Positions 5,872-49,048 of a DNA stretch of 64,000 bases are shown piece by piece. The notes beneath the pieces are model-generated. The model saw only the letters and a list, made by a program, of their open reading frames with translations, ran no database searches and was not told the origin of the DNA. The stretch lies in the IMG/VR virus record IMGVR_UViG_3300028833_000077. One strand, given 5' to 3'. The first letter of the stretch is position 1; each line of letters begins with the position of its first letter. Source of the stretch: a virus (taxonomy: Duplodnaviria; Caudoviricetes). The position numbers and the translations under genes are program-made.

Positions 5872-6360
5872 ATTATTAGAATTTATTTATTGATTGGTAT
5901 TTAATTATCAACAAGACATAGTACGTCCCTAAGAGAATCCTCTGGCTCATTATCCTGAAACTTCCACTGCCCGGTCAATATTCAGCTAACTCGTAGCTTT
6001 TCAGCGCTTGCCCCTAACCCCCGTTTACCCTGTACCTTTCATTTCAACATAGTTTGGTGGGGAACAGTTTTATATTCAGAAAGTTTGTGACCTATCGGGG
6101 CTTGAGCTTTCTATCTCAGGACTATGTGCTGTCCCTACAACCCGACTTCTGAGCCTCTATATATCCACTGGACCTTACTAGGCTGTTCATGGGACTATGT
6201 CTCCCAAGGGTCTAAAGTAACTGGTATAAAAACCAGTAAACGAAAAAATTGCAGTCCTAATGTGACGAACAGACTGCAATTATTCCCATTTACTGGTATA
6301 GTTGTCAGGATTTCTCCTGTCAATTTCGGTATGTCTTTGCAGTTATCGTCACTTAACTAC
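5872..6360 (-). ncRNA. Long structured 5' leader, copy 1 (attenuator-like)
   Basis: Nested hairpin 6232-6297 with U-tract; upstream segment 6337-6352 complementary to its stem and loop; homologous to 29323-29438. Confidence 0.6.
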
Positions 6361-6364
6361 GGTG

Positions 6365-6372
6365 CAAAGGTA
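6365..6372 (-). promoter_or_regulatory. Bacteroidetes sigma-A -7 box (TACCTTTG)
   Basis: Matches TAnnTTTG, in AT-rich intergenic DNA ahead of the leader and P63C gene. Confidence 0.7.
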
Positions 6373-20552: not shown

Positions 20553-20588
20553 ATAAGGGGAACGGCTATAGGCCATTCCCCTCTTAGC
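20553..20588 (-). terminator. Intrinsic terminator ending the accessory-gene run
   Basis: AGGGGAA-cggctataggcca-TTCCCCT inverted repeat just past the stop at 20613. Confidence 0.55.
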
Positions 20589-28103: not shown

Positions 28104-28919
28104 TCAAGTCTTCTTGGTCTTCCTTCTAGTCTTCCTCTTAGGTGGAGCTGTTTCTTCCTGAGAAGCCTCTTCTACAGGAGGGGCAATCATCTTGGCATAC
28201 TCAGTCCTTGCCATCCTGTCACACTCTTCATTGTACCTATCTCCTGCATGGCCTCTTACCCATTTCAGTGTAGCTTTGATACCTTTGGCTCTGCATATTG
28301 ACCTATATCTGTCAACTATGTCAAGGTTCTCAGATGCTTCCCATTTCCCACTGAGCACATTGATGCTGTACTGTGAGTCTGAATGAATAACCACTTCAGC
28401 CCCATTGGGAAGGGAGTTCACTACACTGACGATGGCAAGCAGTTCCATCCTGTTTGTTGTGGTGTGGAGGAATCCCTTTGATGTCCTCTTGTACTCATTG
28501 CCATCCTCACCTATTATTATATAGGCAGAACCCCCAGGCTTGTCAGGATGGAACCAGTTGCCACTGCCATCAGTCCATGCAATGAACTTCTTCTGAGTGC
28601 TCTTGTTGGATGCAATCAGATTGTTCTGCATCACCTTGAAGGCATTTATATCCAGCTTGTCCAAGTACCCTGAAGTGCTTGCATTCTTGTGTGGCTCATA
28701 CCACCATCTTACCATGACGGTGTAGTAATCCACAAAGACCTCCATCTTAGAAGGCACACCTTTCGCCTTGCCCCAAACCTTAGTGAAGATGTCTCTATTG
28801 TAATCATCATCCCTGTAATACTTGAAGCCTTCTGAAGTCAGATAGTCTCTAAGTTCTCCATTTGTCATGTTTGTTATTGCTGTTTTCAATATTGTCAGTT
28901 TACTACTGCTCTCTTCCAT
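28104..28919 (-). CDS. rnhA: Ribonuclease HI with extra N-terminal domain (start may be ATG at 28868)
   Basis: WTDGS, TTNRMELLA, IHSDSQY, WVRGHAG, NEECDRMA. Confidence 0.9.
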   Translation of the reverse strand: MEESSSKLTILKTAITNMTNGELRDYLTSEGFKYYRDDDYNRDIFTKVWGKAKGVPSKMEVFVDYYTVMVRWWYEPHKNASTSGYLDKLDINAFKVMQNNLIASNKSTQKKFIAWTDGSGNWFHPDKPGGSAYIIIGEDGNEYKRTSKGFLHTTTNRMELLAIVSVVNSLPNGAEVVIHSDSQYSINVLSGKWEASENLDIVDRYRSICRAKGIKATLKWVRGHAGDRYNEECDRMARTEYAKMIAPPVEEASQEETAPPKRKTRRKTKKT

Positions 28920-29446
28920 CAGCCGTGCAGACCAGGTAATCAGGCTTCTTAGCTGATATCAGAGAGCTTCTTCCTGGTGTGTAAAGAAATTTCACTCACC
29001 AGTTTAACAGAACCTCTCTGTCTCTCTCAGATTGATGGATTTCCAACCAGTATAAACGAGTATCCCCCCTTCAACCAGACTGACTATCTAACAGGTTAAG
29101 CCAGCTTCAGATGTGTGTAGAGTTGCCTGTCTCTGGTGCTGTAGTCATCTTCCAAGCCCCACTATCTCGGTGTGCACCTCCTTGCTGCGAGTGTTCAGCT
29201 CCAACAGCCTAGTACCGATTTATCCCATGCTCCCTAGCGAACCCAGCAGGAACTTCCTCTCTTAACTGGTAATGCGAAGCATGTTTAGTAATCGAGGGTG
29301 GTTATCTGAATAAAGGAAAAATCCAGTAAACAGAAAAATTGCAACCCTATAGTAGCTCACAGGTTGCAATTCTCTCCATTTACTGGTATATGAGAAAAAA
29401 TCCTTCTACCCAATTATGTCGAAGCAATCAGAGCTACTTGATTACG
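28920..29446 (-). ncRNA. Long structured 5' leader, copy 2 (attenuator-like)
   Basis: Nested hairpin 29323-29386; upstream 29424-29438 complementary to its loop and stem; homologous to copy 1. Confidence 0.6.
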
Positions 29447-29450
29447 TGGA

Positions 29451-29458
29451 CAAAGGTA
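29451..29458 (-). promoter_or_regulatory. Bacteroidetes -7 box (TACCTTTG)
   Basis: AATGTGTACCTTTG identical to the promoter at 6365-6378. Confidence 0.7.
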
Positions 29459-29526
29459 CACATTATAGGTTATATAGTCAAGGACCTAAGAACGATACTA
29501 AGGTCAGAGTAGGATTACCCTTAGAT

Positions 29527-29901
29527 TCAGCTACCACAGTGCTCCCCAAACATGGGTTGGAACATGGACTGCTCCATATAGCATATCGGGGAACTGATGT
29601 TCTTGAACATCCTCTCCTTAGCATCCTTGGAGATACCCACCAACCTTCCTGTGCGGTAGGGGTTATTTCCTGACTCCCCATCCTTGACCTCAATGATGAG
29701 CAGGCCCTTCTGGTCTACCACATTCTGACAGTCGTCACACAGTCCCATGTAGACATCCTTTGGGGCCTCTTGGTCTCCCTTGAGCTTTCCCATCAAAGCT
29801 ACTCCTATCTCCTTGCCACAACACTCACAATGGGTAATGCTTGGATTGAGCCCATGCTTTGGTGACAGCTGTATTGAACCTTTCTTTCTTGCCATAATCA
29901 A
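29527..29901 (-). CDS. Zn-finger hypothetical protein
   Basis: LSPKHGLNP, CECCG, CDDC motifs. Confidence 0.7.
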   Translation of the reverse strand: MIMARKKGSIQLSPKHGLNPSITHCECCGKEIGVALMGKLKGDQEAPKDVYMGLCDDCQNVVDQKGLLIIEVKDGESGNNPYRTGRLVGISKDAKERMFKNISSPICYMEQSMFQPMFGEHCGS

Positions 29902-30909: not shown

Positions 30910-31043
30910 GATAAATTCTTTAAATCGGTTCATACTCATCTGGCGTGCAGGGAGTCCTGCCCAGTTCATATATGAATAGGGCAATGACTCCTACCAAATA
31001 TATACCCATGATAATGGCTATAGTCTTCATAGATGTCTGGTCT

Positions 31044-32844: not shown

Positions 32845-35800
32845 TTAATGAATCCAATGTGTCCCGATTTCTGCTTCTGCGGGGATGGGTAGCTTTGTGC
32901 ATACTAGAGCAGCAGCAGATTCCATGCATTCCTTTAGTTTAACAGGCACAATGTTATGTAGTGCTTCAGGGTAAATGATGTCACTTTCATCATGGACCAG
33001 TGCAGCAAACTCCACTTTTCCAAAATACCCACTGTCTACAACCCAATTGAAGAAGTTTGTCATAGCTATCTTCAGGATGACACAGCCAGAGCCTTGTGTT
33101 GGAGCATTAAGTGCCATACGGTCCCACTTTGATGCTGCCCTGAAGTGCATGGACACCTCTTGTGCTATAGCATCACCAGTTCCTTTATGTCTTAGTCTAT
33201 ACTCTTCCCAAAATTCTTGAGTGAAGGACTTCTGCCTTTCAAGCCATTCCTTGTGATCCCACCAGTACATCTTATGACCACTGTACTTGCACATCAGGAT
33301 ATATCCATTCTGTCTGACAAATTCAGAGCCTTTCTTCTTGAAGTCTGCAATTCCCTTAAATCTGTTATAATAGGCATCCACATAATGTTGGGCTTCTTCC
33401 TCGGATATTGCAAGCTGTGTTGCAAGTCCAAAGGCAGATCCACCGAACTGAATCAAAAACTCAGGACTCTTGGAACGCTTCCTCAGCTCAGGATACTTCT
33501 TCTTGATTTCCTTGGTAGTAATACCCGGCTCCATCTGATCTGCAAAGAATGTCTGTGCCATCAAAGAATGAATGTCCCCACTGCCATGCAGGAACTCTTC
33601 TATCATATGGGGCTCATTGTAAATGTCAGCTCCTAGGCGACTTTCTAGCACCCCGATTCAGGGGTGGACTATCCCTTTACCATGCACACATAGGTGTGTT
33701 TAGGTAGCGCATTATAGTCTCTGCACCTTCCATAATATACTGACCGTTCTTTTTGTTTATAAGATGACCAGCACTATTATAGCTTGGCTCAGGGTTAGGG
33801 GAAGCAACCCCTTCCTTGAATTTCGCGCATTTTTCTCTAAGCATTTCTGCAAAGAGGTGCCCTCTTTCATATTTACGCATCAAGTAAATATGAGCTTCAT
33901 TGTACATTAAATTGGCAACTCTAACAACATCTACTGTTTTTTGTACTTCTAAATAGTACAAGTAGTTATTGTTTGGTTTCTTTCTTTTACTAAGAGTGCT
34001 TTCTATGCCTAAGGAATGCAGGTAATCCTTTATCTTTTGTAAAAAGATCAAGGACTTTCCACATATTCCCCACTGCATGGTATTACCCTTATTAGTAGAG
34101 TGCCAATACCCATCTCCATCGAATATCCCTCGCAGGATGTGCGGTGTTAATGGGGTATAAATATCACATTCATAAGATTTATTATGGAAATTCCCATGTT
34201 CTTCAAGCCAGGCAGCAATTAAATCACTCCTGACAGAAGTACTGAACATGTAAGTGTTACACTTCTTTTGAAGCACTTTTGAAACCTTATTTCTAGGACA
34301 AGCGAAGTCCCTGAATTTCTCTACCATCTCCTTATCCTTTAACGACAGTGAGATTGCCACAGAATTAGTTTCTTTTCTGTGACATACACAACCATCAGTC
34401 AAAAGGAGCCCAAGAAAGTATTCAGACTTCTCATCTCCAATTTTAAAAGGGTTCTCTTTAACTCTTGTATTAACTTCTTTAGGAGTTCTTGGAGCTATCC
34501 CATAACGTAACAACACTCTTCTGATGCTAGTGTTGTAAGTGTTCCATTTCTTAGCAATCTCTACAGTGTTTAATCCTGCTTGATAATCACTAATAATACT
34601 TTGTTCCTTTTCAATACTAAATCTCATATTATCCTGATTTTTGTATTGCAAATTTAAGCAGAGTAATCGGAACATACTATCTTATAAATATTACACTTAT
34701 ACTAATTAATCATTTTACTTAAGCACTGAAGTCGCAGCTGCACCATTCATAGCCTTTAGGAGCTGTAAAGCATCCTCTGGTCTGCTCATCTGCAGGAAGC
34801 TGCTGACAATTCGGATAGGTACAGTCCTTAGGCTTTACCTTATTTACCTTGGCAAGGTCCTCATTAGGCTGCTGTGAGCCACAGGACATGCGGCCACTCG
34901 CTGCACCCAGCTGCTTGTATACAGTATGTATCCTATCTGTCTTTGGATTGATGGCATTCAGATGGCCTTGTCCAAAGGATGAGCACACCTTAAAGTGTTC
35001 TTGATAGTCAAAGTACAGTTTGAGGAACTCATCACATATTCCCTTCTGTGCCTTCAGTAGCTTCTCAAGTACAGAATCCTTGTCCTCACCAGTCTTCTTG
35101 TCCTTTGTGGCAGTATTGAATCCTAGTATCTTCGCTATCTTAACTACTTGCATGGAACTAGACCAGTTTACCTTCACCTTTGGAGTCAAGTCAAACCCAC
35201 TGAACAAATCTCCCTGAGTGTCTATGTAGACAAATTGCTTCAGGTCATTACGTGTGACCACAAAGTCATTGAGAAGCTTTTCTGCTTGAGCAAGCTTTTC
35301 CTGATCAGACTTCATCTTATCCATCCACTTGGCTCTGTCCAGATGGATACCGCACCATTCAAGGTAGGATATAGCAGGGATGAAGTCACACTCTATCTTG
35401 GCTGCCTTCATAAGGTCCTGTTTCTTGAGGTCTTCTACTTGAGACCACATGATTCTTTCAAGATAGGTGACATCTCCAGCTGCATACATGATGACTTGGG
35501 TGTCAAGTCCTCTCCACTGAATTTCCCCTCGGACAGTCTTGTCAATGTTGATATGTAATCTTCTGTCAGCAATGGCATTCAATGCATAAGAGATTTGCCC
35601 TGCAGGCCACCCAAGATGGAGCAGCTGCTCCACAATCATAGTATCATATACTCTTCTGATGATGATACCATAGTTGAAGAAGAACTGCAAGTCAAACTTT
35701 GCATTCTGTAGTACACATAGTGCATTCTCTAGTATGTGCTTGTACTTCTTGATGTCTACAGTAGTACAGTCCACTACTATCCTGGCATCTGCCTTGTCAT

Positions 35801-35972
35801 TTCCAAATTGTACACAGAGAAAGTCACATAAATGTGCATCACGGCCTGTAGTCTCACTGTCCAGCTGGATAATCTTCCAATTCTCCATTATCTTGAGGGA
35901 CTCCTCAACAGAGATAATTTTGTAATCATCCCTGTCAAAGAGTTCCTGTTGATGTGTTACCAGATAGACCAT
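32845..35972 (-). CDS. polA: Family A DNA polymerase, intron-split: exon 1 35972-34722, exon 2 33648-32845 (684 aa spliced)
   Basis: ExoI LDSETTG, NAKFD, YAAGDV; GRMSC..PN.QQLP; splicing restores motif A CDFSA|LESR; motif B RKRSKSPEF; motif C VHDE. Confidence 0.92.
33677..34627 (-). CDS. Intron-encoded double-motif LAGLIDADG homing endonuclease with N-terminal HTH
   Basis: YFLGLLLTDGC and ILRGIFDGDG; likely ATG at 34627. Confidence 0.88.
   Translation of the reverse strand: MRFSIEKEQSIISDYQAGLNTVEIAKKWNTYNTSIRRVLLRYGIAPRTPKEVNTRVKENPFKIGDEKSEYFLGLLLTDGCVCHRKETNSVAISLSLKDKEMVEKFRDFACPRNKVSKVLQKKCNTYMFSTSVRSDLIAAWLEEHGNFHNKSYECDIYTPLTPHILRGIFDGDGYWHSTNKGNTMQWGICGKSLIFLQKIKDYLHSLGIESTLSKRKKPNNNYLYYLEVQKTVDVVRVANLMYNEAHIYLMRKYERGHLFAEMLREKCAKFKEGVASPNPEPSYNSAGHLINKKNGQYIMEGAETIMRYLNTPMCAW
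34649..34656 (-). promoter_or_regulatory. Intron-internal -7 promoter for the homing endonuclease
   Basis: TAAATTTG about 21 nt upstream of ATG 34627. Confidence 0.6.
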
Positions 35973-49040: not shown

Positions 49041-49048
49041 CAAAAATA
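49041..49048 (-). promoter_or_regulatory. Bacteroidetes -7 box (TATTTTTG)
   Basis: TAnnTTTG in the intergenic gap upstream of the ATPase. Confidence 0.55.

What the first reader, a model, noticed from the sequence alone, without database searches (positions are those of the whole stretch)
29323..29466. Paralogous covarying attenuator-like leader, copy 2 (upstream of RNase H)
Seen: the same AATGTGTACCTTTG promoter and the same scaffold (ATACCAGTAAATGG..AATTGCA..TGCAATTTTT..TTTACTGG). The loop is now TGTGAGCTACTATAG and the early segment has become AGTAGCTC-TG-ATTGC. Thus GTGACGA/TCGTCAC in copy 1 is replaced by GTAGCTC/GAGCTAC, and the stem GTC/GAC by ACC/GGT. These compensatory changes are direct evidence of selected RNA pairing. 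The different addresses would let the two loci be regulated orthogonally, for example by their own short terminated transcripts acting in trans (inference).
Basis: partly seen in the sequence, partly recalled or inferred. Interest (0 to 1): 0.78.

Follow-up and report, generated by a model that had tools for sequence, protein, structure and literature searches.

The report
Kissing-loop terminator leader RNA in phage
Just after a promoter and ahead of the RNase H gene block, this rumen crAss-like phage encodes a roughly 135-base RNA whose first hairpin tip base-pairs with the tip of a transcription-stop hairpin; matched mutations keep that pairing in related phages, so it is a real, uncatalogued RNA element whose exact job (probably gating transcription into the next gene cassette) is still untested.

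Summary
On the minus strand (29458 to 29317) there is a Bacteroidota-type promoter (TACCTTTG). It is followed by a 7-bp hairpin A with loop AGUAGCUC, a linker, and a 25-bp hairpin B with a 13-nt loop and a U5 run. Loop B holds GAGCUAC(U), the complement of loop A.

A paralogue lies at 6372 to 6228 with loops GUGACGA/UCGUCAC. I found six more members in related rumen phage contigs. Two of them have unrelated sequence but the same design. Together they show six different loop pairs, all complementary. On the six alignable members, 99% of cells pair. Five of the 7 kissing pairs change on both sides (0 of 500 shuffles reach this).

It matches no Rfam family. It is not a classical attenuator: the early segment pairs with the terminator's loop, not its stem, and there is no conserved leader peptide or antisense promoter.

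My best reading (about 50%) is a cis-acting, promoter-proximal gated terminator. It closes the upstream operon and doses or times entry into a portable downstream cassette. Here that cassette is a strongly conserved 360-nt untranslated leader plus RNase H. Homology with relatives breaks exactly at the element's U-run, so the module also marks cassette-shuffling junctions.

Earlier notes of this scan report the same design in at least 15 other Bacteroidota phage genomes.

The parts
29479..29481 (-). -33-like TTG of the promoter, 20 nt upstream of the -7 box
   Evidence: Read. The spacing is 20-23 nt in the four members inspected, c1, c2, G1 and L024. Bacteroides promoter consensus (-33 TTTG, -7 TAnnTTTG) is from my own knowledge.
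29451..29458 (-). -7 box TACCTTTG (TAnnTTTG), part of the 14-mer shared with copy 1
   Evidence: TAnnTTTG is enriched in non-coding DNA of the coding strand: 12 of 22 hits lie in the 16% non-coding fraction.
29424..29445 (-). Hairpin A at the predicted 5' end of the transcript: stem GUAAUCA/UGAUUGC (7 bp, one U-G), loop AGUAGCUC (29438..29431)
   Evidence: In helix 1, 3 of 7 pairs change on both sides and 97.6% of cells pair.
29387..29423 (-). Linker; contains GACAUA (29420..29415). The exact hexamer is kept in c1, c2, L044 and even the sequence-unrelated L046; near-variants occur in G1, L045 and L024
   Evidence: Function unknown.
29323..29386 (-). Hairpin B: about 25 bp with several G-U pairs and one bulge, 13-nt loop GUGAGCUACUAUA (29360..29348); terminator-like
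   Evidence: -32.7 kcal/mol, z -8.3. In helix 3, 7 of 25 pairs change on both sides and 99.3% of cells pair.
29351..29358 (-). Kissing segment GAGCUAC(U) in loop B, complementary to (A)GUAGCUC of loop A
   Evidence: In helix 2, 5 of 7 pairs change on both sides and 100% of cells pair. Six different loop-pair states occur across eight members.
29317..29322 (-). A + U5 run directly after hairpin B
   Evidence: A run of at least 4 U within 0-1 nt of the stem is present in all eight members. Homology with L044 ends exactly here.
28930..29286 (-). S2: ORF-free conserved leader between the element and RNase H
   Evidence: no ORF under code 11, TAG=Q or code 4.. (82-89% identity against 62-71% for the RNase H coding sequence).
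28104..28919 (-). RNase H gene (271 aa; RNase HI domain at residues 110-239, N-terminal about 100 aa unassigned), first gene of the downstream block
6228..6372 (-). Paralogous copy 1: TACCTTTG 6372..6365; hairpin A 6360..6339 (loop AGUGACGA); hairpin B 6296..6233 (loop holds UCGUCAC 6268..6262); U5 6232..6228

Best explanation
Copy 2 is a promoter-proximal structured RNA of about 135 nt. A host-type (Bacteroidota sigma-A) promoter starts transcription within a few bases of hairpin A. Hairpin B plus its U-run has the form of an intrinsic terminator. Seven to eight bases of loop A pair with the middle of loop B, so the two hairpins dock tip-to-tip within one molecule.

The structure, its strand, and its position are shown. 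The position is after an operon with no other terminator and before a long untranslated leader with no promoter of its own.

The function is inferred. The unit ends the upstream replication operon. It also throttles or times how many polymerases from its own promoter, or from upstream, run on into the downstream cassette (S2 leader, RNase H, small genes). The kissing complex is the selected feature. It either locks the terminator fold or serves as a sequence-independent handle for a factor that lets polymerase through. I cannot tell which from sequence. Terminated transcripts would be compact RNAs with both ends in helices.

The same unit is the conserved left edge of cassettes that have moved between genome positions in related phages.
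For: Structure:
- Covariation in all three helices.
- Six loop-pair states, including two members with unrelated sequence, L046 and G2.
- An architecture scan finds promoter-linked hits only at these sites. Its reversed-loop control gives 0-1 hits per genome.

Strand and RNA:
- G-U pairs occur in stems at seven pair positions.
- The model scores sense 142-157 bits against antisense 28-37 bits, though it was trained on the sense strand.
- The element lies on the coding strand, just downstream of TAnnTTTG.

Terminator form:
- A U-run follows the stem in all eight members.
- In 20-34 kb the only other clear minus-strand terminator found is at 20583..20555. That tool only accepts loops of 3-8 nt.

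Leader role:
- No TAnnTTTG lies between hairpin B and the RNase H start.
- No ORF exists in the 400-nt gap under three genetic codes.
- The gap is the most conserved part of the locus, so it is presumably expressed, which needs read-through.
- In L044 the U-run abuts the ATG of the next gene.

Cassette edge:
- 90% homology between L044 and the window stops at 29317.
- In L045 and L046 the S2 leader and RNase H sit at two other genome positions, each behind a kissing-loop unit.
- G1 lacks the whole block at the syntenic site.
Against: - No termination or read-through measurement exists. The direction of any effect of the kiss is unknown.
- A 25-bp stem folds well before the polymerase reaches the U-run, so a kinetic role of the loop contact in termination is not obvious.
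- No candidate antiterminator was identified.
- Three cultured crAss-like genomes lack the design, so no published transcriptome could be used. They were crAss001 (first 100 kb of 102.7 kb), phi14:2 (1-50 kb) and Kolpuevirus (50-99.5 kb).
- Four of the eight members were found through RNase H, so the link to that gene is partly a sampling effect.
Confidence: 0.5

Rival explanations
1. It is a stand-alone small RNA gene. The roughly 135-nt terminated transcript is the product and acts in trans, as a protein decoy or as a regulator. This includes the first reader's idea of locus-specific repression by kissing a nascent copy. Hairpin B merely doubles as the operon terminator.
For: - It has a complete promoter-to-terminator unit, with both RNA ends in helices.
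- The two loop pairs in one genome are non-cross-complementary.
- The GACAUA linker motif is kept even in L046.
Against: - Both loops are occupied by each other, which leaves no obvious free seed.
- No extended partner site exists elsewhere in the window.
- The unit is always placed at the 5' edge of a cassette, with no other promoter for the conserved leader and genes behind it.
Confidence: 0.2
2. It is a 5' stabiliser or processing module. Read-through is the norm, and the kissed hairpin pair shields the 5' end of the downstream mRNA from 5'-end-dependent decay. Alternatively the 25-bp stem is an RNase III-type processing site that separates upstream and downstream RNAs.
For: - Hairpin A begins 4-5 nt after the -7 box in seven of eight members, that is at the predicted 5' end.
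- Hairpin B is a long, nearly perfect duplex.
Against: - A conserved U-run directly after the stem in all eight members is the signature of a terminator, not of a stabiliser.
- G2 has only an 11-bp hairpin B, too short for RNase III.
Confidence: 0.12
3. It is primer-RNA or origin control of the ColE1 type. The transcript runs into the conserved S2 region, forms a persistent RNA-DNA hybrid, and is cut by the RNase H encoded next door. The kissing-loop terminator sets how often this happens.
For: - A conserved non-coding stretch with an invariant G6 run lies next to RNase H and the DNA polymerase genes.
- Kissing loops are the control device of ColE1 (own knowledge).
Against: - Copy 1, G1, L024 and L044 carry the same unit before unrelated leaders or genes without RNase H.
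- No AT-rich unwinding element or iterons were seen.
- Copy 1 lies near the convergence point of GC skew rather than at a minimum.
- The RNase H link is partly a sampling effect.
Confidence: 0.06
4. It is a purely DNA-level feature: a recombination linker, cruciform or operator, with no RNA function.
For: - Homology breakpoints coincide with the element.
- Hairpin A is a 7-N8-7 inverted repeat just downstream of a promoter.
Against: - Loop-loop complementarity has no meaning in duplex DNA.
- The half-sites covary instead of being conserved.
- G-U pairs make the fold strand-specific, and the antisense strand scores about 115 bits lower.
Confidence: 0.04

Closest known systems
Lambdoid late unit PR' - 6S RNA - tR' with antiterminator Q (own knowledge)
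   Same: A constitutive promoter is followed within about 100-200 nt by an intrinsic terminator. A short RNA is made unless the polymerase is modified, and the genes behind depend on read-through.
   Different: Q works through a DNA site at the promoter, and the 6S RNA has no selected loop-loop contact. No Q homologue was identified here. The host is Bacteroidota, with different promoter rules.
Kissing-loop expression platforms of riboswitches: guanidine-IV (mepA motif) and cobalamin L5-L13 (own knowledge; lead for guanidine-IV from note e1-3439917)
   Same: The loop of an upstream hairpin pairs with the loop of the regulatory hairpin, and this contact decides the transcription or translation outcome.
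   Different: Riboswitches have an invariant ligand pocket, and in guanidine-IV the second hairpin competes with the terminator. Here the kissed hairpin is the terminator itself. Loop sequences drift freely. Only a short GACAUA motif is shared, and there is no Rfam match.
ColE1 RNA I/RNA II (with Rop) and countertranscript attenuation of pT181/pIP501 (own knowledge)
   Same: Fully paired 7-nt loop-loop helices act as the specificity device. Different replicons carry different 'addresses'. In pT181/pIP501 the kiss decides whether a terminator forms.
   Different: Those kisses are intermolecular, between sense and antisense transcripts. Here both loops are on one transcript and no antisense promoter exists.
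PeSL mobile regulatory cassettes of T4-type phages (PMC2839356, PMC4122927)
   Same: Conserved composite promoter/stem-loop motifs flank accessory genes and coincide with insertion, deletion and replacement junctions.
   Different: In PeSLs the stem-loop lies upstream of the promoter (terminator, then promoter), and no loop-loop pairing is described. Here the order is promoter, hairpin A, terminator.
put RNA of phage HK022 (own knowledge)
   Same: A promoter-proximal pair of hairpins in the nascent RNA acts in cis on the transcribing polymerase.
   Different: put suppresses downstream terminators and is not itself one. There is no kissing contact and no sequence similarity.

Membership tests
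Intrinsic (factor-independent) terminator | Stable hairpin with a G+C-containing base, followed at once by a U-run | tested here: met
   Stem base CCAG/CUGG, then A + U5. dG is -32.7 kcal/mol. A U-run follows the stem in all eight members.
Intrinsic (factor-independent) terminator | RNA 3' ends form in the U-run | not testable with these tools
   Only assembled contigs of RNA runs were on hand.
Classical transcription attenuator (terminator/anti-terminator switch) | A conserved alternative helix that excludes the terminator stem | tested here: not met
   The early segment pairs with the loop, not the stem. The only candidate, linker AAUUG against the 3' arm, is 5-6 bp and absent in L024.
Classical transcription attenuator (terminator/anti-terminator switch) | Conserved leader peptide or other sensor | tested here: not met
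   The mini-ORF is 10 aa in four members and 28 or 49 aa in two. It is absent at that place in L046 and G2.
Riboswitch with kissing-loop platform (cobalamin, guanidine-IV) | Match to the family covariance model | tested here: not met
   No Rfam hit at gathering score or at E up to 5.
Riboswitch with kissing-loop platform (cobalamin, guanidine-IV) | Invariant ligand-binding core across members | tested here: inconclusive
   Only GACAUA after hairpin A is shared beyond close relatives. G2 lacks it.
Lambda-type Q antitermination unit | Promoter-proximal terminator giving a short RNA before the regulated genes | tested here: met
   This holds for architecture only.
Lambda-type Q antitermination unit | Q-family protein and its DNA site at the promoter | not tested
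   No systematic search was made. Neighbouring small proteins gave only weak zinc-ribbon hits.
Antisense (countertranscript) kissing control, ColE1/pT181 type | Convergent promoter giving an antisense RNA across the loops | tested here: not met
   No TAnnTTTG on the plus strand within 200 nt of either copy.
PeSL-type mobile regulatory cassette | Conserved promoter/stem-loop motif at indel and replacement junctions | tested here: met
   The homology break lies at 29317, and cassettes sit at three positions.
PeSL-type mobile regulatory cassette | Stem-loop upstream of the promoter | tested here: not met
   The order here is promoter, then hairpins (PeSL layout).

The most novel reading that the evidence does not exclude
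The unit belongs to a widespread, undescribed class of cis-acting RNA gates in Bacteroidota phages. In this class a terminator is 'addressed' to its own transcript start by an intramolecular kissing complex. A phage or host factor reads the complex by shape, not sequence, to switch termination off at the right time. This makes promoter-leader-gene cassettes portable and mutually insulated.
Probability: 0.22. Interest if true: 0.8.

Novelty: new variant of a known kind. Interest (0 to 1): 0.66.

Why it matters
crAss-like phages are among the most abundant gut and rumen viruses, yet almost nothing is known about how their transcription is timed after the virion polymerase has acted.

A promoter-proximal terminator whose loop is docked to the transcript's 5' hairpin would be a new way to build a regulated or insulated transcription unit. 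It combines the logic of lambda's late leader with the kissing-loop specificity known from plasmid copy control and some riboswitches.

The loop 'addresses' drift while the design is kept, and the unit sits exactly at cassette junctions. It may therefore also explain how accessory gene blocks are exchanged between these phages. It is small enough to test directly with reporters and in vitro transcription.

Tried and rejected
- **Rfam:** gathering scan of the window, and E up to 5 on both loci and on L024, L046 and L041. Only tRNAs and chance miRNA-hairpin hits appeared.
- **More copies by pattern:** Viral contigs gave only G1. Metagenome contigs gave one new member, L024, among 19 stretches. 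Genome contigs gave three chance hits and no prophage copy. An invariant S2 21-mer gave nothing in viral contigs.
- **Megablast of 28-31 kb against phage records:** nothing.
- **P63C protein in viral contigs:** nothing.
- **Cultured crAss-like genomes scanned for the architecture:** none beyond the reversed-loop control in crAss001 (100 kb), phi14:2 (1-50 kb) and Kolpuevirus 'frurule' (50-99.5 kb).
- **More distant RNase H loci (L048, L049, L052):** the gene sits inside operons with no leader. For L043 this was read directly; L042 was not inspected separately.
- **Coding readings:** alternative genetic codes (TAG=Q, code 4) open no ORF in the 400-nt gap. A leader peptide is rejected.
- **Other pairings:** no antisense promoter. 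Trans targets of either loop in the window are only chance-level near-matches.
- **Spacers:** there is no common motif or homology among the four long spacers. Their single-sequence folding energy is not better than shuffles.
- **RNA runs (contigs only):** the element itself has thin, fragmented cover in runs X3 and X4, so nothing can be said about abundance of the short RNA or about read-through. One X3 contig ends exactly at the foot of hairpin B, whereas DNA runs bridge it. This is a single run and I do not use it as evidence.

Full report
**What is there**

All genes around the finding run on the minus strand. Read on that strand, 29481..29317 contains, in order:
- a TTG, then 20 nt later TACCTTTG. 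This is the TAnnTTTG -7 box of Bacteroidota sigma-A promoters (consensus from my own knowledge);
- five bases later, hairpin A (GUAAUCA-AGUAGCUC-UGAUUGC);
- a 37-nt linker;
- hairpin B, about 25 bp with one bulge and several G-U pairs, with a 13-nt loop GUGAGCUACUAUA;
- A + UUUUU.

Loop B contains GAGCUAC(U), the Watson-Crick complement of (A)GUAGCUC in loop A.

Both units fold much better than shuffled sequence.

**The phage**

- The window has giant ORFs of 3142, 1497 and over 1647 aa.
- It has a split family-A DNA polymerase. Its best relatives are Crassvirales at 40-44% amino-acid identity.
- It comes from sheep gut samples.
- TAnnTTTG is strongly enriched in non-coding DNA of the coding strand.
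- A Bacteroidota host is an inference from these points.
- No whole genome is held. Notes of this scan say the genome extends at least 70 kb beyond the window.

**Relatives and covariation**

Pattern and protein-neighbour searches gave six further members.

| Member | Source | Loop A / loop B |
|---|---|---|
| G1 | 65.6-kb IMG/VR contig, about 70% nucleotide identity, syntenic; orthologue of copy 1 | GUGACGC / GCGUCAC |
| L024 | 2-kb rumen contig | AUAGCCC / GGGCUAU |
| L044 | Logan contig | same loops as copy 2 |
| L045 | Logan contig; outer stem changed in a compensatory way to CCAGAGA/UCUCUGG | GUGACGC / GCGUCAC |
| L046 | Logan contig; no sequence similarity but the same design, with a 33-bp terminator hairpin | AGGCAGA / UCUGCCU |
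| G2 | Distant 74-kb phage; again unrelated in sequence | AGUUCGAGU / ACUCGAACU |

Including the window's two copies, eight members show six different loop pairs, all complementary.

On the six alignable members:
- 99.1% of cells pair;
- 15 of 39 pairs change on both sides;
- the kissing helix has 5 of 7 such pairs and no broken cell;
- no shuffle of 500 reaches these values, and slid registers fall to 33-45%.

An architecture scanner that I wrote recovers every member. It looks for a terminator-like hairpin whose apical loop is complementary to the loop of an upstream hairpin. It gives 0-1 hits per genome with reversed loops.

A covariance model finds no further copies in the window, G1 or G2. 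It scores the antisense strand about 115 bits lower. G-U pairs in the stems also make the fold strand-specific.

This is therefore a selected RNA structure, not a DNA palindrome.

**What it is not**

- **Not a known family.** No Rfam family matches.
- **Not an alternative-pairing attenuator.** The early segment meets the loop of the terminator hairpin, so both hairpins coexist. The only candidate competitor helix is 5-6 bp and not conserved.
- **No leader peptide.** The 10-codon ORF inside hairpin B is not conserved.
- **No antisense RNA.** No antisense promoter exists.
- **No trans partner found.** Neither loop has an extended partner elsewhere in the window.

**Context**

No terminator or promoter lies between the upstream gene (stop at 29527) and the unit.

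On the minus strand, the non-coding TAnnTTTG boxes relevant to these operons are at 49048, 29458, 20482 and 6372. A weak box at 31002 is set aside.

The only other clear terminator in 20-34 kb is at 20583..20555. That tool cannot see 13-nt loops.

Hairpin B therefore stands at the end of the roughly 20-kb replication operon. Copy 1 stands at the end of the giant-gene operon.

Behind hairpin B come about 400 nt without any ORF under three genetic codes and without a promoter box. The RNase H gene follows.

This spacer (S2, 29286..28930) is the most conserved part of the locus. It is 82-89% identical among the window, L045 and L046. The RNase H coding sequence is 62-71% identical and the kissing-loop unit 62-77%. 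Its consensus fold has a 12-bp closing helix and some compensatory pairs.

Copy 1 is likewise followed by a 320-nt leader (S1). S1 is 83% identical to G1, while the flanking genes are about 68% identical and the downstream gene differs.

The four long leaders (S1, S2, L024, G2) are unrelated to each other.

**Cassette shuffling**

- The 90% homology between L044 and the window stops at 29317, the last U of the run. L044 continues straight into a 254-aa ORF instead of S2. Homology resumes inside RNase H at the domain border.
- In L045 the S2 leader and RNase H sit behind the giant-gene homologue, which is the position of copy 1 in the window.
- In L046 they sit behind the homologue of the window's 23444..24220 gene.
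- G1 lacks the block 23.2-29.5 kb at the syntenic site.

The unit is thus the constant left edge of mobile cassettes. This is reminiscent of the PeSL promoter/stem-loop cassettes of T4-type phages, but with the parts in reverse order.

**Mechanism**

Shown:
- the fold;
- its strand;
- the terminator form;
- the promoter-proximal position;
- the lack of another promoter for a conserved leader and genes.

Inferred: a cis-acting gate that ends upstream transcription and doses or times entry into the cassette. The kissing complex would be either a lock on the terminator fold or a shape-specific handle for an antiterminating factor. I put this at about 0.5.

The rivals are:
- a trans-acting small RNA (0.2);
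- a 5' stabiliser or processing site (0.12);
- ColE1-like primer control linked to the adjacent RNase H (0.06);
- a DNA-only element (0.04).

The two loop pairs of the window cannot cross-pair, with at most 3 contiguous pairs. Nothing here separates the two.

**Expression**

Only assembled contigs of two metatranscriptome runs from one sheep sample were available. They cover S2 and RNase H, but they allow no statement on ends or levels.

**Prior notes of this scan**

Other agents reported the same design in at least 15 other Bacteroidota phage genomes. The design is a promoter, a 5' hairpin, and a terminator whose loop pairs with the hairpin's loop. I treated these notes as leads only. The two sequence-unrelated members found here (L046, G2) are my own check that the design, not the sequence, is what is conserved.

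Full-text searches found no description of it.

Noticed in passing
window 28930-29286 (minus strand); L045:1582-1957; L046:1591-1964: S2 is an ORF-free leader of about 360 nt between the element and RNase H. It is 82-89% identical among three phages whose RNase H coding sequence is only 62-71% identical. Its consensus fold has a 12-bp closing helix (GGUACUAGGCU/AGCCUGAUUACC) and an invariant G6 run. It has no Rfam match and is probably an undescribed large structured RNA.
   Followed up: partly
window 5904-6226 (minus strand); L014:1086-1452: S1 is the leader behind copy 1. It is 83% identical to G1, while the flanking genes are about 68% identical and the downstream gene differs. Variable blocks are compensatory stems (AGCCU/AGGCU to ACCCA/UGGGU; GGGAC/GUCCU to AGAGAU/AUCUCU). 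It is unrelated in sequence to S2.
   Followed up: partly
L044:1202-1966 versus window 28592-29316: In a 90%-identical relative, S2 plus the N-terminal 100 aa of RNase H are replaced by a 254-aa ORF of no known family plus a different RNase H N-terminus. One junction is the U-run of the element. The other is the RNase H domain border.
   Followed up: partly
window 28583-29322: A 740-nt contig of metatranscriptome run X3 ends exactly at the base after hairpin B, while contigs of DNA runs X5 and X6 bridge the hairpin. It could be a reverse-transcriptase stop or an RNA 5' end. This is one run only.
   Followed up: no
window 32845-35972 (minus strand): The family-A DNA polymerase is split into two ORFs of 417 and 268 aa, with a 332-aa endonuclease-like ORF (weak LAGLIDADG hit) between them.
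   Followed up: no
window 59706-59810 (minus strand): Rfam reports a tRNA match 105 nt long (45.5 bits) that ARAGORN does not call. It may be an intron-containing or otherwise unusual tRNA.
   Followed up: no
L003:1500-1560 and 1845-1870 (phage G2): There are repeated GGTAACAC(C)TTTG motifs upstream of G2's kissing-loop unit. They may be tandem promoter boxes or operator repeats.
   Followed up: no
contig of P0001 (no DNA served), 330 nt downstream of its RNase H: A 93%-identical relative of the window's RNase H is followed by two small genes and an RtcB RNA ligase gene. The window lacks this gene at that place.
   Followed up: no
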